NCBI GenBank assembly: GCA_902615855.1
Contig: CACMQN010000005.1
Coordinates: 8,596-72,595, forward strand
Direction of reading: 5' to 3'
Length of the DNA: 64,000 nucleotides
Source of the DNA: an uncultured Candidatus Actinomarina sp.
Lineage (GTDB): Bacteria > Actinomycetota > Acidimicrobiia > Actinomarinales > Actinomarinaceae
Part shown: in pieces, positions 15,159 through 35,656 of the stretch
Layout of the letters: every line of letters begins with the position of its first letter
How positions within the stretch are numbered: the stretch's first letter is position 1
Notes under the pieces: model-generated
Seen by the model: only the letters and a program-made list of their open reading frames with translations
Database searches by the model: none
What the model was told of the DNA's origin: nothing
Position numbers and translations under genes: made by a program

Positions 15159-16187
15159 ATGGAATTTGAAAAACTTATTTATCCTGGATTCAATAAGACA
15201 TTCGGAGAGCTTGAGTGCATTAAATTAGACAAAAGTAATCAATTAGAGGTTATTGATTATTTCAATATAGATTGGGTTCGTTCAGCCGTTGAAGAGCTTG
15301 TAAAAACTGTTGATGAAAAGATAAAAATTGAGTTTATTGAGCCAACCACAGTAGATATTGAATCTGCATCAAAATTAGTGAAAGCAGATCTATCTGTAGA
15401 GGATGCAAAAAAAGACTTTAGCAAAGGTAAGAGAATTATTGGTATCTCTTCTGGAAAAGGTGGCGTTGGAAAATCAACTATTTCATCTTTACTTAGCATG
15501 GCTTTCGCAAAACAAGGAAAAAAAGTTGGAATTCTTGATGCTGATATCTGGGGATATTCAATACCAAAAATGTTGGGAGCAAAATTTCCTCCAATCCCAT
15601 TCAATAACAGAATTTTCCCATCAAAAATAAATGATCTCAGCGTTATTTCAATGGAGTACTTCGTAAAACAAGATGAGGCAGTAATTTGGAGAGGACCAAT
15701 GCTTCATAAGGCTATTGAACAATTCCTGTATGAAGTTTTATGGCAGGATATAGATATCTTACTTATCGATATGCCACCCGGAACAGGTGATGTCTCGATA
15801 TCCCTTTCTCAATTTCTTAACTTTTATGAAACGATCATTGTTACGACACCTCAAAGCAATGCGACAACCGTTGCAGAGAGAGCAGGAATTATGTCAAAGA
15901 AAGTAAACTCAAGCATCATTGGTGTTATTGAAAATATGTCTTATTTAGAGAATGGGAGTGAGAAACTATATCCGTTTGGTAAAGGCGGGGGAGAAGAACT
16001 CTCAAAGAACCTAGGTGTCGAATTTATTGGTAGCCTTCCGTTATATGATTCTGTATCAAAATATTCAGAGGATGGAAAACTTCTCGAATTTGGTGCAGAT
16101 AATGATTTCAAAGTTGTCGAGGAAATGGTCGATGCAATTAATGCCATTGCTCCTAAGAAAAAACCAATTGATTTAAAAATTAATTAG
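15159..16187 (+). CDS. mrp: Mrp/NBP35 (ApbC) Fe-S cluster carrier ATPase
   Basis: SGKGGVGKST, LDADIWGYSIP, WRGPMLHKA, DMPPGTGD, GVIENMS. ORF open from TTG 15138; ATG 15159 preferred. Confidence 0.92.
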   Translation: MEFEKLIYPGFNKTFGELECIKLDKSNQLEVIDYFNIDWVRSAVEELVKTVDEKIKIEFIEPTTVDIESASKLVKADLSVEDAKKDFSKGKRIIGISSGKGGVGKSTISSLLSMAFAKQGKKVGILDADIWGYSIPKMLGAKFPPIPFNNRIFPSKINDLSVISMEYFVKQDEAVIWRGPMLHKAIEQFLYEVLWQDIDILLIDMPPGTGDVSISLSQFLNFYETIIVTTPQSNATTVAERAGIMSKKVNSSIIGVIENMSYLENGSEKLYPFGKGGGEELSKNLGVEFIGSLPLYDSVSKYSEDGKLLEFGADNDFKVVEEMVDAINAIAPKKKPIDLKIN

Positions 16188-16935
16188 CTATAAAACAGAA
16201 CACGGAAAGTAATAGACAGTAATAACCAAAATATTGCAGTTTTGAACTGGTTGTAAAATTAATTAAAACTCTTATCGCAAGTAGTCCGGTAAACATAGCA
16301 ACAATTGTTGGGAGAACAATATTTGTGTTTACTTGAAAGGAATCATTGATAAAGGTTAGGCTCCATGCTCCAAATATTGTTGGGATACCTAGCAAGAGTG
16401 AATAATAAATTGCATCAGCTTTTTTTACCCCGAGATAAATAGCTGTCAATAAAGTTACACCAGATCGTGAAACTCCAGGTAGTAATGCAATAGATTGAGC
16501 GATCCCAATAACAAATGCTTGGCTGACGGTTATATCTCTGATGCTTAATGCTTCACTATTATTTATGTTTCCTGAAAAAATTAGGAGTAATGAAAAAATT
16601 AAGTATGAAGCTCCTGTGATAAGAATAAGGTTGGGACTCTCATCGATGATATTTTGTATAGGTGTCAGTAAACCAATGAGAACCGCTGGAATAATACCAG
16701 CAAGAATTATTTTGAAATAAAAGATAAAAGTCTCTAAATCTTCAAATATCTCAAAAATTCTTTTTCGGTAGAAAAATACTATTGAGAATAAAGTGCCAAT
16801 ATGCAAGAAGGCAATGTCATTGGTGTTTAGGTCAAGTTCAGAACTTAATGATGAAATAATGACGAGATGACCACTTGATGATATCGGTAAGAATTCTGTT
16901 AGTCCCTGTAAAACACCAGTTAAAATTTCAAGCAT
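16180..16935 (-). CDS. uppP: Undecaprenyl-diphosphate phosphatase
   Basis: QGLTEFLPISSSGHL and LLPGVSRSG motifs. Confidence 0.95.
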   Translation of the reverse strand: MLEILTGVLQGLTEFLPISSSGHLVIISSLSSELDLNTNDIAFLHIGTLFSIVFFYRKRIFEIFEDLETFIFYFKIILAGIIPAVLIGLLTPIQNIIDESPNLILITGASYLIFSLLLIFSGNINNSEALSIRDITVSQAFVIGIAQSIALLPGVSRSGVTLLTAIYLGVKKADAIYYSLLLGIPTIFGAWSLTFINDSFQVNTNIVLPTIVAMFTGLLAIRVLINFTTSSKLQYFGYYCLLLSVFCFIAN

Positions 16936-17085
16936 CTATTTTATACTAGCTAAATGCCAGTCGTTGCAATCACCACATCTATAAATATTGAATTTCTGAT
17001 TGTACTCTGACTCAGCCCAGCCTCTTTCTTTTCTTGCCTCGTTTTCAGATTTAAATCTTTTTTTTGAACAGCTCTCTATATTCAT
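16936..17085 (-). CDS. 49-aa putative CCCH zinc-binding microprotein (not in ORF track)
   Basis: MNIESCSKKRFKSENEARKERGWAESEYNQKFNIYRCGDCNDWHLASIK; C6, C37, C40, H44; its TAG directly abuts the uppP ATG. Confidence 0.75.
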   Translation of the reverse strand: MNIESCSKKRFKSENEARKERGWAESEYNQKFNIYRCGDCNDWHLASIK

Positions 17086-17165
17086 CTTTACCAATATCTA
17101 CAATAAATTAAAAATACATCAATGGAATAAAAACTTATTTAAATTTAAGTAAGTAGAATCTAATC

Positions 17166-17765
17166 ATGAGCATTGTTCCCGTGATTGCAAGCTATCTAAT
17201 AGGTTCGATTAATTTTGCTTATATTGTTGCAAAATTCAAAAATATCAATATTCAAGAGATTGGAAGTGGAAATCCAGGTTCTTCAAACGTTTTGCGAGCA
17301 CTCGGAAAAAAATATGCAATAATCGTACTCGTTGGTGATTTATTTAAGGGAATAGCTCCATTTCTGATTTTTGGAGGTGAATTAGAGACATTAATCTATG
17401 CGTCTCTCGCCGTTATAGGGCATTGTTTTCCAATATTTTATGGATTTAAAGGCGGAAAGGGTGTCGCAACGTATTTAGGGACAGTAATAGGATATATTAT
17501 TTTTATTGCACCAGATTTAGGGTTTTTATTTTGGGAAATTGCCCTAATTTTTGGATTTATTGCACTTTATTTTGGAATATTCTTCATTTTTAGAATTTCA
17601 GCAATATCAAGTCTGTTTACATGCTCAGTTGGTGCACTTTATGTCATTTTTCAATCACCAGAAATTTACATCGTTGGGTTTCAACTATTTATTTTGTTAC
17701 TAATTTTCTATCAGCATAGAGAAAATCTATCACGACTATCAAAAGGCGATGAGAATAAATTTTAA
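17166..17765 (+). CDS. plsY: Glycerol-3-phosphate acyltransferase
   Basis: SYLIGSI, GSGNPGSSNVLR, GHCFPIFYGFKGGKGVAT, HRENL. Confidence 0.95.
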   Translation: MSIVPVIASYLIGSINFAYIVAKFKNINIQEIGSGNPGSSNVLRALGKKYAIIVLVGDLFKGIAPFLIFGGELETLIYASLAVIGHCFPIFYGFKGGKGVATYLGTVIGYIIFIAPDLGFLFWEIALIFGFIALYFGIFFIFRISAISSLFTCSVGALYVIFQSPEIYIVGFQLFILLLIFYQHRENLSRLSKGDENKF

Positions 17766-17826
17766 AACTTAAGAATAAAACTTTTATTTGTTGTAATATA
17801 TTTTTAAGAAGAGTTGAGGCAGGGCA

Positions 17827-18201
17827 ATGAGTTCAACATTAATTTTAATAGGGTTACTTTTATCACTATCGATGGCAGTGATTCTTCCCGAGATACAGAT
17901 ATCGAAAAATCAAAACAATTACGCCTATTTTATCTCTCCCGAATATGACTCCATGGTGAATAAACAAAGAAGAGGGTATTTAATTTTAGGATTACTTGCG
18001 GTCTCAACATTCTTCGTATCTATACAGACCATGTCTGTACCATTATTTATTTTTCATCTTATTCTTGATTGTGTATTTGGTATTTATGCGTTCCTCTCCT
18101 TTCAGGTGAGAAAATCCATGCAGGTACAAAATAATTTTACTATGGGGTACCAAGTAGAAAATACAGTAGAGGAAGAAAGCTACTTCAAAGAAGCTGTTTA
18201 A
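17827..18201 (+). CDS. Hypothetical 3-TM membrane protein (weak resemblance to compact SepX/GlpR-type proteins)
   Basis: N-terminal TM, then QRR followed by two TMs with HLILD; family assignment is from memory only. Confidence 0.6.
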   Translation: MSSTLILIGLLLSLSMAVILPEIQISKNQNNYAYFISPEYDSMVNKQRRGYLILGLLAVSTFFVSIQTMSVPLFIFHLILDCVFGIYAFLSFQVRKSMQVQNNFTMGYQVENTVEEESYFKEAV

Positions 18202-18204
18202 AAC

Positions 18205-18819
18205 TTGAAAACACCTGAGCAGATTACAAATAGTCTCGTTAAAGAGTTTGATAAATTAAACGATATTAGAGAACAGTCCCTAAAAGTTTCCAGAGAGATC
18301 ATAAAATCTTGTTCTAAGTCAATCAGGAATGTCCACCGTAACAATCTAGGCGAGGCAAAACAACATCTAGACGAGGCAAATAAAAATTATCAGGATTTAC
18401 GTTCTTCTTTGAAAGATATTCCAGAATTGCGATTTGCAGGCTATGTAAATGACTCGGAAAGGGAGTTAATTGAGGCATTTTTAGTTTTCGAATTCGAGAA
18501 AACTAATTCACTTCTCAAATTTGAGGGAATGAATGTGTCTGCCTCAAACTACATACAGGGACTTGGTGATGCAATCGGAGAGTGGAGAAGAAAAGTTTTG
18601 GATAGTCTCAGAAAACTAGAGATTGAAGAAGGTGAGAAGTACTTGGCTATTATGGAGGCCTCTATGGAAATCTTTAACGAGTTAGACTACCCTGATGCAT
18701 TAACTGGTGGTCTAAGAAGATATGCCGATACTGCCAGGGCGATCATTGAAAGAACAAGGTCTGATCTGACAAATGCTATAGTTAGTGAATCACTTCGTAA
18801 AGATTTGAAAGATAAATAA
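18205..18819 (+). CDS. Translin/TRAX (C3PO) family protein
   Basis: All-helical; RE..LK.SR, ERELIEA (E87, E90) and NYIQGLGDAIGEWRR (D122, E126) match the TRAX catalytic acidic pattern; LRRYAD. TTG start. Confidence 0.85.
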   Translation: MKTPEQITNSLVKEFDKLNDIREQSLKVSREIIKSCSKSIRNVHRNNLGEAKQHLDEANKNYQDLRSSLKDIPELRFAGYVNDSERELIEAFLVFEFEKTNSLLKFEGMNVSASNYIQGLGDAIGEWRRKVLDSLRKLEIEEGEKYLAIMEASMEIFNELDYPDALTGGLRRYADTARAIIERTRSDLTNAIVSESLRKDLKDK

Positions 18820-19322
18820 TGGAATACAAATATATAACTGGAAAAGTTTTAGAGATTACTGGTTCTGGCTGGCCTGATGGAACAGTTCTTCAAGAAATTT
18901 ATCCTGATACCTCATTTGTCAGTGGTGTTGAAAATCCAAAAGGCATGAAGATGGTACCTGTAATCAAAGATAGAAAAATTTATGCAAAATATATATTTGA
19001 AAAAAGTTTCGAGGGAGGACCTGGTCTCGTTCATGGAGGAATTCTCTCGACAGTACTCGACGATATGATGGGTTATGCAACATTTACGCAAAATCTATTT
19101 TGTGTTACTGCAAATCTTAATGTAAATTTTAGAGCGCCCTCACCAGTCGATAAAGAATTCGAACTTTATGCCTGGGTTAAAGAGGTTGATGGTAATAAAG
19201 TTTACGCAGAATCAGTTATTCAATCCGAAGACTCAATACATGTTGAGGCAGATGGTTTATTTATAAATATAGGTCAAGATGGTGCACGACAATATTTCTC
19301 ACCTGAAAAGCAATATCCGTAA
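18819..19322 (+). CDS. PaaI-family hotdog thioesterase
   Basis: ENPKG, FEGGPGLVHGGILSTVLDD, VTANLNVNFRAP. Confidence 0.88.
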   Translation: MEYKYITGKVLEITGSGWPDGTVLQEIYPDTSFVSGVENPKGMKMVPVIKDRKIYAKYIFEKSFEGGPGLVHGGILSTVLDDMMGYATFTQNLFCVTANLNVNFRAPSPVDKEFELYAWVKEVDGNKVYAESVIQSEDSIHVEADGLFINIGQDGARQYFSPEKQYP

Positions 19323-19323
19323 T

Positions 19324-21165
19324 TTATAGTTTTGACATTAAAAAATGACTTGTTGACTGTATTGTCACCATTGGATTAACTCCAGAACAACGAGGAAACA
19401 CTGAAGAGTCAGCAACATAAACATTATCTAATCCATGTACTTTTCCATCAATATCAGTAACTCCTAGATTTGGATCTGGATTCATTCTTGCAGTTCCCAT
19501 TTGGTGGGCAGAACCAAGCAGCATTCTAAAAGGCTGATTTTTTATTGCTCTGATGTCATTTATGAAGTCTTCGATATCTTTATTTGATGATTTTTTCCAA
19601 TGCATTGTAGGAGAGGCTGCAACCATAATTTCTTCTGCACCAGCCAAATAATTTGCTCTTACAAGGTTTTCAATTCCATGCATCAAGTTCTTATGATCAA
19701 AATCGTTTAAGTTATAATCCCATAAATGTTGGGGATTCTTATTGATGATCGATCCAGAGCTAGTATCTGATGTGAGAACTATCCCTCCAGACCAATGATT
19801 GTAGCTTTCAACAAAATCATTAAATTTATCAGTGTTGTTTGGAAAAAATGGGAAGAAAAGACTTGGATGCATAGGCAGTCCCTCCAAGAGGTATCCATAA
19901 TTATCTTTCATAAACAAATTGTCATCTGAGTAAATACCCTGCATTGTTCCTGCCCATGGCTTTTGTTCGTCTGAGAATTTTCCTGCGACACCAGAAACAG
20001 GATGTAGTTTTAAATTATGTCCAAGATGTTTATTTTTATATCCACTATCAAGCAATATTTTAGGGGTATTTAGGGAGCCAGCAGCAAGAATGACCTTATC
20101 GACGGCAACTTTATGTAACATCCCGTTATTTTCAACATTAATATGTGTTGCTTTTCCATCTGATATATCAAGGTTTTTGATATTTGTATCACTAAACACA
20201 TTGTTGGGTTCAAATTTATCTTCTGAAAACCAAACTTTGTTAGTGGAGTTGATGCTTTCGTCGTAACGACCAAAAGTACTAAAGCCAGATTCTGTGCAAT
20301 CTGCATTACTGGTGTTTCTTGGGATAATTTTATAACTTAAATCATTAAGCTCTAAACCCTGAGCCAATTTCTCTTCTTTTTGTGGGATTCGATTATTTTC
20401 TACATCGACATTTAATTCTTTACAGACATAATCCATACTGCTTTTAAATTCACTGGAGTTGAAATAGTTATCTTGTCCTGTAAGTGAGTCCCATTCACTT
20501 AATATATTGTCAGGTGTTCGAAGAGAAGTTGTCCAATTTACACTCGTACCTCCACCAATTCCCATTCCAGCCAAAAGTAAGACTTTATATCCTCTGGTTT
20601 GTTGTATTCCGTTAGTGTCATAGAAGTTGTGATATCCGAATGTTTCATTGTTTGTCTCACCATTTCCATGACTACCTTTTTCGAAGAGACCTACTTCATA
20701 TTTTTCATTGAGAATATTGGCTGCGACACCTCCACCAGAACCACTTCCAATTACTGCTACTTCGATACTTTTAGGAATTGATACATCTTTTTTTTCTATT
20801 GTTGTATTTTTATAGATCGGATAATCAAGATGTTTGTATACAGAGCCCTCACCGTCAAGGGATCTTGCAGTGCTCAGTCCAAACAATGCTGTTATGCCTG
20901 AACCAAGTTTTCTGAGCAATGACAAGTTTGAGCTTTGTAGATTTTTAACAAATTTTGGAATATTTTTGTCTTTTATGAACACTTTTCTTATTCCAAAAGA
21001 AAAGATAAAAAAGACTATTTTTAGCAGTACGATCTCTGATTTATCAGGAAAATTTGCAAGGATAAAATTAAAATATTTTTCGGAGTTTTTTGTTTCTCCT
21101 TCATTGAAATTTGGATACAAATTAGAAAAGATGATTCTAAATGATTTAGATATTCTTTTATCCAT
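19324..21165 (-). CDS. GMC oxidoreductase, long-chain alcohol oxidase-like
   Basis: VIGSGSGGG FAD motif, GMGIGGGTSVNW, NLKLHP, LGSAHQMGTARM, GVNPMVTI. Confidence 0.88.
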   Translation of the reverse strand: MDKRISKSFRIIFSNLYPNFNEGETKNSEKYFNFILANFPDKSEIVLLKIVFFIFSFGIRKVFIKDKNIPKFVKNLQSSNLSLLRKLGSGITALFGLSTARSLDGEGSVYKHLDYPIYKNTTIEKKDVSIPKSIEVAVIGSGSGGGVAANILNEKYEVGLFEKGSHGNGETNNETFGYHNFYDTNGIQQTRGYKVLLLAGMGIGGGTSVNWTTSLRTPDNILSEWDSLTGQDNYFNSSEFKSSMDYVCKELNVDVENNRIPQKEEKLAQGLELNDLSYKIIPRNTSNADCTESGFSTFGRYDESINSTNKVWFSEDKFEPNNVFSDTNIKNLDISDGKATHINVENNGMLHKVAVDKVILAAGSLNTPKILLDSGYKNKHLGHNLKLHPVSGVAGKFSDEQKPWAGTMQGIYSDDNLFMKDNYGYLLEGLPMHPSLFFPFFPNNTDKFNDFVESYNHWSGGIVLTSDTSSGSIINKNPQHLWDYNLNDFDHKNLMHGIENLVRANYLAGAEEIMVAASPTMHWKKSSNKDIEDFINDIRAIKNQPFRMLLGSAHQMGTARMNPDPNLGVTDIDGKVHGLDNVYVADSSVFPRCSGVNPMVTIQSTSHFLMSKL

Positions 21166-21403: not shown

Positions 21404-22861
21404 ATGAACCAGGGCATTAAGTTCTATAAAACATACGATATAAAAAAAATATCAGAGTGTCATCAATCTCTTGGTCCAAAAACTTTAACACCAAATTCTC
21501 GTTTAGATCGATGGAGTGGGGTTCATAATGCTATATCTGATTGGCTATTAAATGATGCAAATGATGAGGTTGCGGTTAAGGTTGCAGAAGAAAACTTTCA
21601 ATTTTATGACCCACTGCAAAGAAAAATAATGTCTGAACTTTTTGAGCGATTTAGAAGTTTGGTTCCTAAACCATTACCTCAGGTCAATATCGATTTTTAT
21701 AGACAAGAGATCATAAGAGAGATTGAAGGTGAAGAGAAGGGTATGTATACATCCTTTCAATATCAACTTGAAGATGAGGATAATACTGAATATATAAAGC
21801 TTAAAGCAGGAGTCTCCGATATTGAGGATATAGACAGAGCCATTGTTGCAGAAACTAAGCTAGAGGGTGAGACTTTTCTAACTGCTCAGCTTATCCATGA
21901 TGATTTTGATGAGATAAAAGAACCAGAAAATTCAAAAGAAATTATTGATAACTATTTCAATATTATTCAAGAATTTGAAACAAATAGAAAACAAGCAACT
22001 CCTGGACTTCATTGCTATATGTGTTCTAGACCATCACGGTGTGGTCAATATCCTGTGGTAGATGGACAAGAAGCTAAGTCAAATAATAGAGCAATTTTAA
22101 TTAGTAAGTCAAACTTGTTAAATCTTGAGACTTGCGAGCGATGGACGTCTTGGAGAGCACAATATGCAATACCAAAAGATATCGTAAACGAATCATTTGA
22201 AGCTGAACTTGGACAAAAATTTCACTCTTATTCACAAAAGATGCTTGAAAAAAATAAAGATATTTTTGGAGATAAAGAAATTGAGAGATTAAAAAAGCTA
22301 CTCGTTGATGAAGAGGAAAAATTTTCGTCTCAGATACTCAAAAAATATGAGGAACTCATCCAAGCCTTAGATGATGAGGTTGAAGATCAAAACGAGTTAG
22401 AAATTAAATTATCAGAGTATGGTCTTGGATTTTCGATATTAAAAGATGGAATAGTCTCAAATTCAAAAATGGAGTTAAGAGAAGATAAAGTTGCAGTAAC
22501 ATTTATGGGCCAAGCTGATCTTGTTGGAAGGTACAAAGGAAAAGGTCTTGTAATTGAACTAAAAACGGGACAAGAAAGCAGTGATGACCTTACAGAGGCT
22601 GAATTATATGCACTTGGTGCAAAATTGTTACTCAAAGAGGACGAGGTCTACGTTTTTCATATATATACAAATAAAGATGGTGGAAAACTTAAGAAAAGAA
22701 AATTTGGAGAAAGTGAGTTTGATTCAATCATTAAAAAGTTCGAGGATAAAGCCCAGAGAGTTGCCAATTGGAACCCTAATGATTCACTATCACCCCCATT
22801 TAATGTTGGTGATTGGTGCTCAAATTGTGATTATCAAACCACTTGTCCAGAGTATAGATAA
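21404..22861 (+). CDS. Tandem double PD-(D/E)XK (Cas4/AddB-like) Fe-S nuclease
   Basis: Two 1+3 Cys sets (C19+C204/207/213; C244+C472/475/481); C-terminal domain has GQADL and IELKTG; N-terminal equivalents are degenerate. Confidence 0.8.
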   Translation: MNQGIKFYKTYDIKKISECHQSLGPKTLTPNSRLDRWSGVHNAISDWLLNDANDEVAVKVAEENFQFYDPLQRKIMSELFERFRSLVPKPLPQVNIDFYRQEIIREIEGEEKGMYTSFQYQLEDEDNTEYIKLKAGVSDIEDIDRAIVAETKLEGETFLTAQLIHDDFDEIKEPENSKEIIDNYFNIIQEFETNRKQATPGLHCYMCSRPSRCGQYPVVDGQEAKSNNRAILISKSNLLNLETCERWTSWRAQYAIPKDIVNESFEAELGQKFHSYSQKMLEKNKDIFGDKEIERLKKLLVDEEEKFSSQILKKYEELIQALDDEVEDQNELEIKLSEYGLGFSILKDGIVSNSKMELREDKVAVTFMGQADLVGRYKGKGLVIELKTGQESSDDLTEAELYALGAKLLLKEDEVYVFHIYTNKDGGKLKKRKFGESEFDSIIKKFEDKAQRVANWNPNDSLSPPFNVGDWCSNCDYQTTCPEYR

Positions 22862-32105: not shown

Positions 32106-32180
32106 CGGGCTGTGGCTCAGCTTGGCTAGAGCGCCTGCTTTGGGAGCAGGAGGTCGTGAGTTCGAATCTCACCAGCCCGA
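32106..32180 (+). tRNA. tRNA-Pro, anticodon TGG
   Basis: CGGGCTG/CAGCCCG acceptor, CCTGC-TTTGGGA-GCAGG, GTTCGAAT. Confidence 0.96.
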
Positions 32181-32185
32181 CTAGC

Positions 32186-32256
32186 GCGGGTGTAGCTTAA
32201 TGGCAAAGCTCCAGCCTTCCAAGCTGGCTATGAGGGTTCGATTCCCTTCACCCGCT
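32186..32256 (+). tRNA. tRNA-Gly, anticodon TCC
   Basis: GCGGGTG/CACCCGC acceptor, CCAGC-CTTCCAA-GCTGG, U73. Confidence 0.96.
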
Positions 32257-32262
32257 CAAGAG

Positions 32263-32336
32263 GCTCTCGTAGCTCAAATGGATAGAGCAACAGACTTCTA
32301 ATCTGTAGGTTATAGGTTCGAGTCCTATCGAGAGCG
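32263..32336 (+). tRNA. tRNA-Arg, anticodon TCT
   Basis: GCTCTCG/CGAGAGC acceptor, ACAGA-CTTCTAA-TCTGT. Confidence 0.96.
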
Positions 32337-32340
32337 CCGT

Positions 32341-32416
32341 GGTGATCGTAGCTCAGTTTGGTTAGAGCGCCTGGTTGTGGTCCAGGAGGTCGCGGGTTCG
32401 AATCCCGTCGGTCACC
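32341..32416 (+). tRNA. tRNA-His, anticodon GTG
   Basis: Encoded G-1 pairing with C73, CCTGG-TTGTGGT-CCAGG, GTTCGAAT. Confidence 0.96.
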
Positions 32417-32436
32417 CACCTTATTTAGGAGAACAA

Positions 32437-33753
32437 TTGAAATATAAAATAAAAAATACGAGTGATTTCGAGAAAGAACTTGACCTAAAAGTAGACAATA
32501 AAGACCTCGAAGAATATAAAGACGAGGCAATAAAGAGAATTTCTAAGAATTTAAAAATAAAAGGTTTTAGACCCGGAAAAATACCACCTAATATCGTCAC
32601 AAGGGAAGTTGGTGAAGACGCCATAAACGAAGAGGCAATAGAACTGTTCTTACCAGAGAAACTGTTTTCAATCCTAAAGGATGAAGAAATAAATCCAGCA
32701 ACAAGACCAGTAATTAAGAAAATTGAAAAGAAAGAAAAAAACTTTGAAATTGATGTACTGATTACTCTCTGGCCTAAATTATCTAAACTTCCAAAACTAG
32801 AACAAGAAGTTGAAGTGGAGTCTATAAAACCAACAGAAGAAGAACTTGACGATCAGATAGATAGGGTAAGAACCCAGTTTGCGGAAGTTTCAAAAGTTGA
32901 AAGACCAGTTCAATCAGGTGATTATGCGCTAGTGAATATCTCTGCAAAAAAAAATAATAATGATCTGAAAGATTTTAACTTTCAAGATTATCTTTACGAA
33001 GTTGGATCCAACACTTTGACTGCTCAACTTGATTCAAAATTGGAGGCAGTATCTCCTGGTGCAATCGTAAAATTTAATGAAAATCTTCCACAACTAGGGG
33101 AGGAAAATGTTGAGGTTACAGTTCTCGTAAAAGAAGTAAGAGAAAAAATACTTCCAGACCTGACAGATGAATGGGTTTCAGAAACTACTGAGTTTGATGA
33201 TATTAAAAATCTAAAAGAAGAGTTGGAAAAAAATATTGAGATGATTAAGAAAAGACAAGTAGCTTCTCAGTACCAAGCAGAATTAACAAACAAACTTATT
33301 GAAGAAGCAAAGATTGACTTACCAGAACAGTTAGTGATTGCTGAAATGGATAGTATCCTTCAAAACTTCATTAACGAGTTGGCACAAAATAATATAAAGT
33401 TAGAAGATTATTTTCAAGTCACTGGACTTACAGAGGAAACTTTACGTGAAGATCTCAATAAACAAGCTACAAGAAATTTAACTATGGTTGTGATACTAGA
33501 TAAGGTTATTGAGGATTTAGACATCAAGCTAGAAGATGAAGATAATGCCGTAATTGATGAACATATGAAATCACATGATAACGAAGATGACGTTGAAAAC
33601 ACCACCCACAGACTTAATCTTGAGGCAGAATCCTTAAGAAATAAGGCAATGATCCATGTTTTGAAGTCAGGATCGTCAATAGACAAAAATGGTGAAAAAG
33701 TATATCTTCAAGATGTGTACAATCAAGATACAGATACAAGAGAGGAAGAATAA
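32437..33753 (+). CDS. tig: Trigger factor
   Basis: [10 protein letters not shown] ribosome-binding motif, FKBP-like domain; TTG start at 32437 after AGGAG (track start lies inside tRNA-His). Confidence 0.93.
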
Positions 33754-33754
33754 C

Positions 33755-34372
33755 ATGAAAAAAGAGCCTTCAAATTATGTTGTACCTACTGTTATTGAGA
33801 ATACAAATAGAGGCGAAAGAGCTTTCGATATTTATTCAAGGCTTTTAAAAGATAGAATTATATTTCTTGGCACTCCAATTGATGATGGAGTAGCAAATCT
33901 AATAATGGCACAGCTTTTACATTTAGAGTCAGAAGATCCAGAGAAAGATATCTACGTATATATCAACTCTCCAGGAGGATCGATTACATCATTGTTTGCA
34001 ATCTATGACACAATGAAATACATCAAGCCAGATGTTGCAACTGTTTGTATGGGACTTGCTGCTTCAGCAGGTGCTGTGATTTTAGCTGGTGGAACTCCAG
34101 GTAAAAGATACTCACTTCCACATGCAAGAATTATGTTACATCAACCAGCTGGTGGGGCAGAAGGCACCTCAAAAGATATCGAAATCCAAGCAAAGTTGAT
34201 AACAGACATGAGAAACCAAATAAATGGACTTTTGGCAGATTTTACCAAAAAAGACATAGAACAAATCGCTGTTGATACCGATAGAGATTTCTGGATGACT
34301 GCGCAAGAAGCGTTGGAATACGGTATAGTAGATGAAGTACTAACTCAAAGGGAGTTAGCAGACAAAAAATAA
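33755..34372 (+). CDS. clpP: ATP-dependent Clp protease proteolytic subunit
   Basis: [42 protein letters not shown]; ATG 33755. Confidence 0.96.
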
Positions 34373-34387
34373 CAACAGGGTAAGGTT

Positions 34388-35656
34388 ATGGCTAGTAAAG
34401 AATCATCAACTGATCCGTTAAAATGTAGTTTTTGTGGTAAATCACAAAAACAAGTAATTAAACTCATCGCCGGTCCAGGCGTCTATATTTGTGACGAGTG
34501 TATTGAGCTTTGTGTCGAAATCATTGAAGAAGAAAAAGTTGAGACCCTTGAAGCTACAAGTGAGACACATTTACCTCTACCAAAAGAAATAAACCATGCT
34601 CTTAATGAATTTGTTATTGGTCAATCTGAAGCTAAAAAAACTTTATCTGTTGCAGTCTATAACCACTATAAGAGAATTTATAAAGATGATGAAAAGAATG
34701 ATGATCTTGAAATTCAAAAATCTAATGTACTCATACTTGGCCCTACCGGAAGCGGTAAGACACTTTTAGCTCAAACTTTGGCAAAGATACTTCAAGTACC
34801 TTTCGCAATCGCAGATGCTACAACGTTGACTGAAGCTGGTTATGTTGGTGAAGACGTTGAAAATATCTTATTAACTTTGATTCAAGCTGCAGACTTTGAT
34901 ATAAAAAAGGCAGAAAAAGGGATAATCTACATTGATGAAATAGACAAAATCACTAGAAAATCAGATAATCCTTCAATTACAAGAGATGTTTCTGGAGAAG
35001 GAGTACAACAAGCTTTACTTAAAATTCTAGAAGGCACCACCGCACAAGTACCTCCTCAAGGGGGTAGAAAACATCCTCAACAAGAGTATTTACAAATTGA
35101 TACAACAAACATCTTATTCATTGTCGGTGGAGCATTTGATGGTCTTGATCAGATAATTGGAAAAAGGCTTGGAGACAACTCTATAGGGTTTAACACAAAC
35201 TTGAACAATAAAGATAAGGTCAATGAAAGTACTATTTTCGATAATGTTGAGCCAAAAGATCTAAGAAGATATGGTTTGATACCAGAGTTTATTGGAAGAC
35301 TTCCAGTTGTAACAAGTGTTAATGAATTAGATAAAGAAGCATTAATCAAAATACTTGTAGAACCAAAAAATGCAATTACCAAACAATTCAAAAAAATCTT
35401 TGAGTTGGACGATGTAGAGCTTACGTTTACAGATGGTGCTCTTGAGGCAATGGCAGAACTTGCTCTTGAAAGAAAAACTGGTGCTAGAGGGCTAAGATCA
35501 ATAATTGAAAAATTACTACTCGATGAAATGTTTGAAGCACCATCAAGAAAAGATATTGAAAAAATCATTATTGATAAAGAAAATGTTGTTGATGACATTC
35601 AACCAAAGATGGTTCTAAAACAAAGCAAAGACAAAAAAGACTCTAAACCAGCCTGA
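34388..35656 (+). CDS. clpX: Clp protease ATP-binding subunit
   Basis: CSFCGK zinc finger, [21 protein letters not shown]. Confidence 0.97.

What the first reader, a model, noticed from the sequence alone, without database searches (positions are those of the whole stretch)
18205..18819. Bacterial Translin/TRAX (C3PO-like) RNase with an intact catalytic tetrad
Seen: E87, E90, D122 and E126 in ExxE ... GLGDxxGE context. Known: these correspond to the metal-binding acidic residues of TRAX and archaeal homo-octameric C3PO, which cleaves RNA (siRNA passenger strands, pre-tRNA/miRNA); the family is mainly eukaryotic and archaeal, sparse in bacteria, and often mis-annotated as a haloacid dehalogenase. 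Inference: retention in a minimal genome implies a real RNA-processing role, for example on tRNA precursors or antisense overlaps. Its in vivo function in bacteria is not established as far as I know.
Basis: partly seen in the sequence, partly recalled or inferred. Interest (0 to 1): 0.65.

Follow-up and report, generated by a model that had tools for sequence, protein, structure and literature searches.

The report
TRAX-like nuclease gene in Actinomarina
This gene of the tiny marine bacterium Candidatus Actinomarina encodes a genuine relative of the archaeal/eukaryotic TRAX (C3PO) nucleic-acid-cutting enzyme with its active site intact, but the family is already catalogued and common in several bacterial phyla, so the only fresh point is its tight pairing with a cell-division-type membrane protein.

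Summary
ORF 18205-18819 (+, 204 aa, TTG start) carries E87/E90 (ELIE) and D122/E126 (GLGDAIGE).

It is a translin-superfamily protein of the TRAX type:
- Pfam Translin scores above its cut-off.
- Archaeoglobus AfTRAX matches at E=4e-21.
- The AlphaFold model (pLDDT 96) superposes on AfC3PO at TM 0.85-0.91.

The acidic positions are E, E, D/E, E in all 152 relatives compared. The gene is single-copy, present in 21 of 24 genus genomes, and under strong purifying selection (dN/dS about 0.05). The most likely function is a homo-oligomeric, two-metal C3PO-like endonuclease. Whether it acts on RNA or DNA in vivo is unknown.

It is not rare in bacteria. It occurs in 152 of 396 good Actinomycetota genomes and in many Chloroflexota and Armatimonadota. 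NCBI already names it "translin family protein", and bacterial members were reported in 2012.

The new detail is the gene order. Across Actinomycetota the gene sits directly behind a 3-TM SepX/GlpR-like divisome-type membrane protein, here 17827-18201 with a 3-nt gap. Actinomarina keeps this pair although it has lost MoeA/Glp.

In Chloroflexota the neighbours are SSB, DUF3467, a Cas4-like nuclease and RecN.

Verdict: an ordinary new member of a known family, with modest interest.

The parts
18205..18819 (+). TRAX-like (translin superfamily, archaeal-C3PO type) protein gene, 204 aa, TTG start, single copy in the genome
   Evidence: ORF. Pfam PF01997 27.9 bits, cut-off 25.9. AfTRAX 3zc1 E=4e-21. 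Profile vs PDB: AfTRAX 7e-41, NEQ131 5e-17, human TRAX 1e-7. AF2 pLDDT 96.3. Foldseek AfC3PO TM 0.85/0.91. One PF01997 match in the own genome.
18463..18474 (+). Codons for E87-L-I-E90, the first half of the metal-binding tetrad (ExxE)
   Evidence: Both E are invariant in 152 relatives. They correspond to NeC3PO Glu82/Glu85 (PMC5100593).
18568..18582 (+). Codons for D122-A-I-G-E126, the second half of the tetrad (DxxxE within GLGDAIGE)
   Evidence: E126 is invariant; position 122 is D in 59 and E in 93 of 152 relatives. They correspond to NeC3PO Asp117/Glu121 and AfC3PO D114.
17827..18201 (+). 124-aa three-TM membrane protein, a shortened SepX/GlpR-like homologue. Its stop lies 3 nt before the TRAX-like start, so it is probably co-transcribed and translationally coupled.
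   Evidence: Sequence. The same family lies directly upstream on the same strand in 34 loci and in 11 of 20 further Actinomycetota families. hhalign Actinomarina vs high-GC members: 96.4%, E=1.2e-9. 20/38 members give sub-threshold NCBIfam SepX/GlpR hits, best 3.4e-8. No Pfam family.
18819..19322 (+). 167-aa hotdog-fold (4HBT) thioesterase. Its ATG overlaps the TRAX-like stop codon. This neighbour is found only in Actinomarina.
   Evidence: Pfam PF03061 E=3.9e-9. Present downstream only in the Actinomarina loci (17 loci).
17166..17765 (+). plsY (glycerol-3-phosphate acyltransferase), a synteny anchor shared with other Acidimicrobiia
   Evidence: Pfam PF02660. plsY lies upstream of the TRAX-like gene in L012-L016 and L020.
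16180..16935 (-). uppP/bacA (undecaprenyl-diphosphatase), a synteny anchor shared with other Acidimicrobiia
   Evidence: Pfam PF02673. Found near the TRAX-like gene in L012-L015.

Best explanation
The ORF encodes a bacterial orthologue of archaeal TRAX (the single subunit of archaeal C3PO). By homology it most likely assembles into a hollow homo-oligomer; an octamer is seen for AfC3PO and NeC3PO. It would use E87, E90, D122 and E126 to hold two Mg2+/Mn2+ ions and cut single-stranded or short duplex nucleic acid inside the cavity. Conserved basic residues (R22, R30, R41, H44, R45, R128, R129) would bind the substrate.

Shown here: family membership, predicted fold, an intact and invariant acidic tetrad, single copy, core-gene status in the genus, purifying selection, and one bacterial clade not rejected.

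Inferred: oligomeric state, metal-dependent nuclease activity and substrate.

In Actinomycetota the gene is the distal partner of a SepX/GlpR-like membrane-protein gene. I infer that the two are co-expressed and that the nuclease may act at or near the membrane or division site. In this window no tRNA or RNA gene is linked to it.
For: - Sequence: Pfam Translin is above the gathering score. AfTRAX matches at E=4e-21 over residues 13-194. A family profile hits AfTRAX at 7e-41, NEQ131 at 5e-17 and human/Drosophila TRAX at 1e-7 to 3e-5; no translin chain is listed at E<=0.01.
- Fold: the AF2 model has pLDDT 96.3 and is all-helical. The top Foldseek hits are AfC3PO (TM 0.85/0.91, rmsd 1.6 A), NeC3PO and human TRAX chains, then translin.
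- Active site: the tetrad aligns with experimentally defined catalytic residues (PMC5100593). It is invariant (with D/E at position 122) in 152 relatives.
- Copy number and retention: one family member per genome, in 21/24 genus genomes.
- Selection: dN/dS is 0.02-0.05.
- Phylogeny: 79 bacterial sequences form a starred cluster. Holding Actinomarina with them gives a better likelihood, p-AU 0.54.
- Synteny: uppP-plsY-...-SepX-like-TRAX is shared with other Acidimicrobiia.
Against: - No biochemical datum exists for any bacterial member.
- The oligomeric state could not be modelled here.
- The gene's neighbours differ between phyla, so no single partner or pathway is implied.
- The free tree placed the Actinomarina sequences on a long, compositionally odd branch outside the bacterial cluster.
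Confidence: 0.8

Rival explanations
1. The protein is a DNA-repair or recombination nuclease, acting on ssDNA or DNA ends rather than as an RNase.
For: In Chloroflexota (Anaerolineae) the gene sits in a conserved run: SSB, DUF3467, TRAX-like, Cas4-like PD-(D/E)XK nuclease, NAD kinase, RecN (10-20 loci). NeC3PO cleaves ssDNA and dsDNA as well as RNA (PMC5100593). One relative (P0161) carries a C-terminal extension that looks like an HRDC domain by eye.
Against: NeC3PO is at least 10-fold more active on ssRNA than on ssDNA. The Chloroflexota neighbourhood is not found in Actinomycetota. The window's Cas4-like protein is not detectably similar to the Chloroflexota one (E=0.07), and it is separated from the TRAX-like gene by two unrelated genes.
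Confidence: 0.25
2. It is a tRNA or other RNA-processing RNase, as the first reader proposed (pre-tRNA leaders, antisense transcripts).
For: Eukaryotic C3PO is described as processing tRNAs, miRNAs and siRNAs (abstracts). In many high-GC Actinomycetota loci a tRNA-Ala(CGC) gene lies 16-130 nt downstream on the same strand. In archaea TRAX is linked to SepRS, a tRNA-charging enzyme (PMC5424206).
Against: In this window and in all Actinomarina loci examined no tRNA is adjacent; the nearest is tRNA-Met, 3.8 kb upstream. No tRNA is adjacent in the Chloroflexota loci. Earlier scan notes judged the tRNA-Ala adjacency to be inherited gene order; those notes are unchecked.
Confidence: 0.3
3. It is a non-catalytic, translin-like nucleic-acid-binding or scaffold protein, for example a soluble ligand of the SepX/GlpR-like membrane protein with no nuclease role.
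For: It is tightly coupled to a divisome-type membrane protein across Actinomycetota. Eukaryotic translin itself binds but does not cut.
Against: All four metal-binding positions stay acidic in 152/152 sequences, which is hard to explain without catalysis. The profile matches TRAX chains, and no translin chain reaches E<=0.01.
Confidence: 0.07
4. It is a haloacid-dehalogenase-superfamily hydrolase, as the NCBIfam PRK14562 model names say.
For: NF011160 and its sibling models match at up to 194 bits and carry the name 'haloacid dehalogenase superfamily protein'.
Against: Every score is below the model's curated cut-off. The predicted structure is an all-helical bundle identical to C3PO, not an alpha/beta Rossmann-like HAD fold. 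The model name is a legacy mislabel.
Confidence: 0.01

Closest known systems
AfTRAX / AfC3PO of Archaeoglobus fulgidus (PDB 3ZC0, 3ZC1)
   Same: About 32% identity over nearly the full length. Same length class (199 vs 204 aa). Same seven-helix fold (TM 0.85-0.91). Same ExxE...DxxxE tetrad. A single family member per genome, which implies a homo-oligomer.
   Different: The host is bacterial (Actinomycetota). The genomic context is a SepX/GlpR-like membrane-protein gene upstream, not the archaeal TRAX-SepRS linkage. Activity and assembly are untested.
NeC3PO (NEQ131) of Nanoarchaeum equitans (PDB 5JR9, 5JRC, 5JRE)
   Same: Same fold (TM about 0.8). The spacing of the four catalytic residues is identical (82/85/117/121 vs 87/90/122/126). 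The Arg three residues after the last Glu is conserved (R124 vs R129). It also comes from a minimal genome.
   Different: Only about 23% identity. The alpha5-alpha6 linker resembles AfTRAX more than NeC3PO.
Eukaryotic TRAX in the translin-TRAX hetero-octamer (human C3PO, PDB 3PJA/3QB5)
   Same: Homologous catalytic subunit with the same acidic tetrad (Glu123/Glu126/Asp193/Glu197 in HsTrax).
   Different: No translin paralogue is present, so there is no hetero-oligomer. There is no RNAi machinery in the host. The protein is much shorter (204 vs 290 aa).
Bacterial translin-superfamily proteins of Chloroflexi (Gupta, Kale & Kumar 2012, J Mol Evol 75:155, as cited in PMC5100593)
   Same: 36-41% identity. 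On the evidence here they belong to the same bacterial clade.
   Different: Different conserved neighbours: SSB, DUF3467, Cas4-like nuclease and RecN in Chloroflexota, versus SepX/GlpR-like in Actinomycetota.

Membership tests
Translin superfamily (Pfam PF01997), TRAX / archaeal-C3PO type | Significant match to the family model | tested here: met
   PF01997 scores 27.9 bits against a gathering score of 25.9. phmmer to AfTRAX gives E=4e-21. The family profile hits AfTRAX at 7e-41, NEQ131 at 5e-17 and human TRAX at 1.3e-7.
Translin superfamily (Pfam PF01997), TRAX / archaeal-C3PO type | All-alpha, seven-helix translin fold | tested here: met
   The AF2 model has pLDDT 96.3 and pTM 0.89, with helices only. 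The best Foldseek hits are AfC3PO, NeC3PO and human and Drosophila TRAX, then translin.
Translin superfamily (Pfam PF01997), TRAX / archaeal-C3PO type | Four acidic metal-binding residues (ExxE ... DxxxE) that distinguish catalytic TRAX from translin | tested here: met
   E87, E90, D122 and E126 align with the catalytic residues of AfTRAX and NeC3PO. They are conserved in 152/152 relatives, with D or E at position 122.
Translin superfamily (Pfam PF01997), TRAX / archaeal-C3PO type | Single family member per genome (homo-oligomer, as in archaea) | tested here: met
   There is one PF01997 match and one protein match in the 1.07-Mb assembly, which is 82.8% complete.
Translin superfamily (Pfam PF01997), TRAX / archaeal-C3PO type | Octameric hollow assembly | not testable with these tools
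   Only single-chain prediction is offered here. This needs AF-Multimer, SEC-MALS, or cryo-EM.
Translin superfamily (Pfam PF01997), TRAX / archaeal-C3PO type | Mg2+/Mn2+-dependent endonuclease activity | not testable with these tools
   This is a biochemical assay. No report for any bacterial member was found.
HAD superfamily (name of the NCBIfam PRK14562 models) | Rossmann-like alpha/beta core with a DxD nucleophile motif, and a score above the curated cut-off | tested here: not met
   All six PRK14562 sub-models score below their cut-offs (best 193.7 vs 291). The model is purely helical.
SepX/GlpR divisome membrane proteins (for the upstream gene 17827-18201) | Three TM helices (one N-terminal, two C-terminal) with an Arg-rich juxtamembrane segment | tested here: met
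   The sequence and the alignment of 38 upstream proteins show this layout. GlpR is described as having 3 TM helices plus two disordered regions (PMC10522489). The Actinomarina copy lacks the long linker.
SepX/GlpR divisome membrane proteins (for the upstream gene 17827-18201) | Match to the NCBIfam SepX_GlpR models above their cut-off | tested here: not met
   20/38 members match only below the cut-off (best E=3.4e-8, 33.7 bits vs 110). The window's own copy gives no hit. It is linked to the members that do hit by hhalign at 96.4%, E=1.2e-9.
SepX/GlpR divisome membrane proteins (for the upstream gene 17827-18201) | Genomic co-localisation with a MoeA-type glp gene | tested here: inconclusive
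   moeA lies 2-5 kb upstream of the TRAX-like gene in 7 of the 9 TRAX-positive class relatives. MoeA is absent from all 25 Actinomarina genomes. Whether those MoeA genes are Glp-type was not tested.

The most novel reading that the evidence does not exclude
In Actinomycetota outside the class Actinomycetes, the C3PO-type nuclease would be the cytoplasmic partner of a SepX/GlpR-like divisome membrane protein, docked perhaps through that protein's conserved C-terminal acidic + phi-[RK]-phi-phi tail. It would act on nucleic acid at the membrane or division site. Actinomarina, which has lost MoeA/Glp altogether, keeps just this two-gene core. That would suggest the nuclease, not Glp, is the ancestral or essential ligand of the receptor in these lineages.
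Probability: 0.15. Interest if true: 0.6.

Novelty: new member of a known kind. Interest (0 to 1): 0.3.

Why it matters
No bacterial translin/TRAX protein has a known cellular job. Yet the gene is a conserved core gene in one of the smallest free-living marine bacteria, and it occurs in over a third of sampled Actinomycetota. The family assignment itself adds nothing new, because pipelines already label it. What could matter is the conserved, apparently translationally coupled pairing with a SepX/GlpR-type division protein. That pairing survives in a genome that has discarded the receptor's known ligand (MoeA/Glp). It gives a concrete, testable lead to the in vivo role of bacterial C3PO-like nucleases.

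Tried and rejected
- HAD-hydrolase reading: rejected on fold and on sub-threshold scores.
- tRNA linkage in this window: none. The nearest tRNA is 3.8 kb away. tRNA-Ala(CGC) adjacency exists only in high-GC relatives.
- Recent transfer from archaea into Actinomarina: the free quick tree put Actinomarina outside the bacterial cluster. The constrained all-bacteria tree is 2.6 log-likelihood units better and is not rejected, p-AU 0.54. Synteny with Acidimicrobiia also argues for vertical descent. The odd placement is a long-branch and low-GC composition effect.
- Link to the Cas4-like nuclease gene at 21404-22861: that protein is not similar to the Chloroflexota Cas4-like neighbour (E=0.07). Proximity within one genus is not evidence.
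- Natural SepX-TRAX fusions: none were seen among the longer representatives.
- Promoter and terminator scan of 16800-19600: no more sites than in shuffled sequence, so it does not define the operon.
- One literature search returned only unrelated papers.

Full report
**Observation**

The window holds an ORF at 18205..18819 on the + strand: 204 aa with a TTG start, beginning 3 nt after the stop of the preceding gene. A script count places E87 and E90 in SERELIEAF, and D122 and E126 in GLGDAIGEWRR.

**What the protein is**

- Pfam Translin (PF01997) matches at 27.9 bits against a gathering score of 25.9.
- Six NCBIfam PRK14562 sub-models match at up to 194 bits. All are named 'haloacid dehalogenase superfamily protein', and all score below their curated cut-offs.
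- Against PDB sequences the best hit is Archaeoglobus fulgidus AfTRAX (3zc1) at E=4e-21 over residues 13-194. Next is Nanoarchaeum NEQ131 at 4e-5.
- A profile of 64 relatives hits AfTRAX at 7e-41, NEQ131 at 5e-17, human TRAX at 1.3e-7 and Drosophila TRAX at about 1e-5. No translin chain reaches E<=0.01. The protein is therefore TRAX-like, not translin-like.
- An AlphaFold2 model built on that alignment has mean pLDDT 96.3 and pTM 0.89, and is entirely helical.
- Foldseek ranks AfC3PO first (TM 0.85/0.91, rmsd 1.6 A). NeC3PO and the human and Drosophila TRAX chains follow, then translin.

**The active site**

NeC3PO uses Glu82, Glu85, Asp117 and Glu121 to hold two metal ions. Mutating them cripples cleavage. 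AfC3PO D114 is the equivalent Asp (PMC5100593). In the HMMER alignments these residues align with E87, E90, D122 and E126, and the spacing is identical.

In an alignment of 152 bacterial and archaeal relatives:
- E87, E90 and E126 are invariant.
- Position 122 is always acidic (E in 93, D in 59).
- R22, R30, R128 and D175 are also invariant.
- H44 and R129 are nearly invariant. R129 is the counterpart of the NeC3PO substrate-binding residue Arg124.

**Host and retention**

A 61%-identical homologue is named by NCBI 'MAG: translin family protein [Candidatus Actinomarina sp.]'. The best genome-contig loci are Ca. Actinomarina single-cell genomes.

- The assembly is 1.07 Mb and 82.8% complete, and holds one family member.
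- 21 of 24 same-genus genomes carry the gene. The three without it are 73-78% complete.
- dN/dS against close orthologues is 0.02-0.05.

It is a core gene under strong constraint.

**Distribution**

The family is not sparse in this part of the bacterial tree.
- 152 of 396 high-quality Actinomycetota genomes (123 of 254 genera) carry it.
- A motif scan of one genome per species found at least 483 relatives. The best 80 include Acidimicrobiia, Nitriliruptoraceae, Geothermincolales, many Chloroflexota (Anaerolineae, Dehalococcoidia, Chloroflexia, Ktedonobacteraceae), Armatimonadota and two methanogen MAGs (Methanothrix, Methanocellaceae).
- 1301 clusters at 50% identity match at E<=0.001 among 1.84 billion representatives.
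- Bacterial (Chloroflexi) members were reported by Gupta, Kale and Kumar in 2012, as cited in PMC5100593 and PMC5424206.
- Earlier notes of this scan list 81 such findings in 80 genomes, including CPR bacteria. I treat these as leads only.

**Phylogeny**

In a quick maximum-likelihood tree of 111 sequences, 79 bacterial sequences form a starred cluster. Actinomarina sits apart on a long branch with deviant composition. Constraining all bacteria, Actinomarina included, into one clade gives a likelihood 2.6 units higher and is not rejected (p-AU 0.54). Together with the shared synteny described below, this favours vertical inheritance within Actinomycetota over a separate archaeal transfer.

**Genomic context in Actinomycetota**

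The local gene order in the window is:
- uppP (- strand);
- plsY;
- a 124-aa membrane protein;
- the TRAX-like gene;
- a hotdog thioesterase whose start overlaps the TRAX-like stop;
- a convergent GMC oxidoreductase.

Clustering the neighbours of 91 loci shows that the small membrane protein family lies directly upstream, on the same strand, in 34 loci. It also lies there in 11 of 20 further Actinomycetota families sampled.

These upstream proteins share:
- an N-terminal TM helix;
- an Arg-rich stretch;
- two more TM helices carrying a conserved D and Y;
- a C-terminal acidic tail ending in phi-[RK]-phi-phi.

They have no Pfam family. Twenty of 38 give sub-threshold hits to the NCBIfam 'divisome protein SepX/GlpR' models, best E=3.4e-8. 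The short Actinomarina form matches the longer high-GC forms by hhalign at 96.4% probability, E=1.2e-9.

GlpR is a 3-TM receptor of the MoeA-like divisome protein Glp in Corynebacterium, and glp and glpR co-localise in the genome (PMC10522489). In high-GC Acidimicrobiia the order is plsY, galU, moeA, moaC, SepX-like, TRAX-like. MoeA lies 2-5 kb upstream of the TRAX-like gene in 7 of the 9 TRAX-positive class relatives.

All 25 Actinomarina genomes lack MoeA, yet they keep the SepX-like/TRAX-like pair with a 1-4 nt spacing. An earlier agent's note (e1-750808) drew the same link for Acidimicrobiia. My analysis reached it independently. It extends the link to other families of the phylum and to a lineage without MoeA.

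**Genomic context elsewhere**

- In Anaerolineae the conserved run is SSB, DUF3467, TRAX-like, Cas4-like PD-(D/E)XK nuclease, NAD kinase, a B-box/TM protein and RecN, seen in 10-20 loci.
- In many high-GC Actinomycetota a tRNA-Ala(CGC) gene follows the TRAX-like gene within 16-130 nt. Actinomarina and Chloroflexota have none there.
- In archaea the literature reports a TRAX-SepRS operon.

The partners therefore differ by lineage. This fits a general nuclease rather than a component of one fixed pathway.

**Mechanism and rivals**

My best explanation is a homo-oligomeric, two-metal C3PO-type endonuclease (confidence 0.8 for this molecular function). The in vivo substrate is open.
- An RNA or tRNA role is supported by eukaryotic precedent and by the tRNA-Ala adjacency in relatives.
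- A DNA-repair role is supported by the Chloroflexota neighbourhood and by the DNase activity of NeC3PO.
- A division-site role is suggested by the SepX/GlpR-like coupling.
- A purely structural role is unlikely, given the invariant tetrad.
- The HAD label is wrong.

**Limits**

I could not predict multimers. The promoter and terminator scan was uninformative. I found no paper on the function of a bacterial member.

**Verdict**

The gene is a new member of a known, already annotated family. Interest is modest. The conserved pairing with a SepX/GlpR-like membrane protein, retained in a genome without MoeA/Glp, is the one lead worth an experiment.

Noticed in passing
window 17827-18201: The 124-aa three-TM protein is a minimal SepX/GlpR-like homologue without the long disordered linker. 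All 25 Actinomarina genomes searched lack MoeA (and so any Glp-type ligand), while 15 of 16 other genomes of the class have it.
   Followed up: yes
L014 6635-6709, L016 6644-6718, L050 2844-2920, L070 4643-4721, L102 4619-4694, L116 2653-2725 and others: A tRNA-Ala(CGC) gene lies 16-130 nt downstream of the TRAX-like gene, on the same strand, in many high-GC Actinomycetota loci from several families. None is found in Actinomarina or in the Chloroflexota loci examined.
   Followed up: partly
L039 3159-8578 and about 10-20 other Anaerolineae loci: A conserved run is seen: SSB, DUF3467, TRAX-like, Cas4-like PD-(D/E)XK nuclease, NAD kinase, B-box/TM protein, RecN. DUF3467 is always directly upstream of the TRAX-like gene (20 loci).
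   Followed up: partly
L039 4633-4866 and 4845-5414 (and 16-17 other loci): Downstream of the TRAX-like gene in Chloroflexota, the Cas4-like reading frame appears consistently as two overlapping ORFs (about 83 aa and 176 aa). The short one weakly matches the N-terminal part of the Cas4 model. Whether this is a split gene, a frameshift or two separate genes was not resolved.
   Followed up: no
P0161 (309 aa, metagenomic representative): This TRAX-like protein has a roughly 100-aa C-terminal extension that looks by eye like an HRDC nucleic-acid-binding domain (as in RecQ and RNase D). It was not checked against Pfam.
   Followed up: no
window 18819-19322: A hotdog (4HBT) thioesterase gene has an ATG that overlaps the TRAX-like stop codon. 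This neighbour is confined to Actinomarina.
   Followed up: partly
window 18568-18570 (D122) and the 152-sequence alignment: The third acidic position is Asp in Actinomarina and in both solved archaeal enzymes. It is Glu in 93 of the 152 relatives compared, including the high-GC Acidimicrobiia.
   Followed up: yes
L114 2654-3556, L123 2643-3548: In two lower-GC Actinomycetota families the gene directly upstream of the TRAX-like gene is a roughly 300-aa protein. By eye it resembles Hsp33 (C-terminal CxC...CxxC), not the SepX/GlpR-like protein.
   Followed up: no
window 32106-35656: A cluster of tRNA-Pro, Gly, Arg and His genes is followed by ORFs of 458, 227 and 422 aa, then 865 aa. The sizes suggest tig, clpP, clpX and valS, which is typical actinobacterial synteny. 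I used this only to orient on the host and did not verify it.
   Followed up: no
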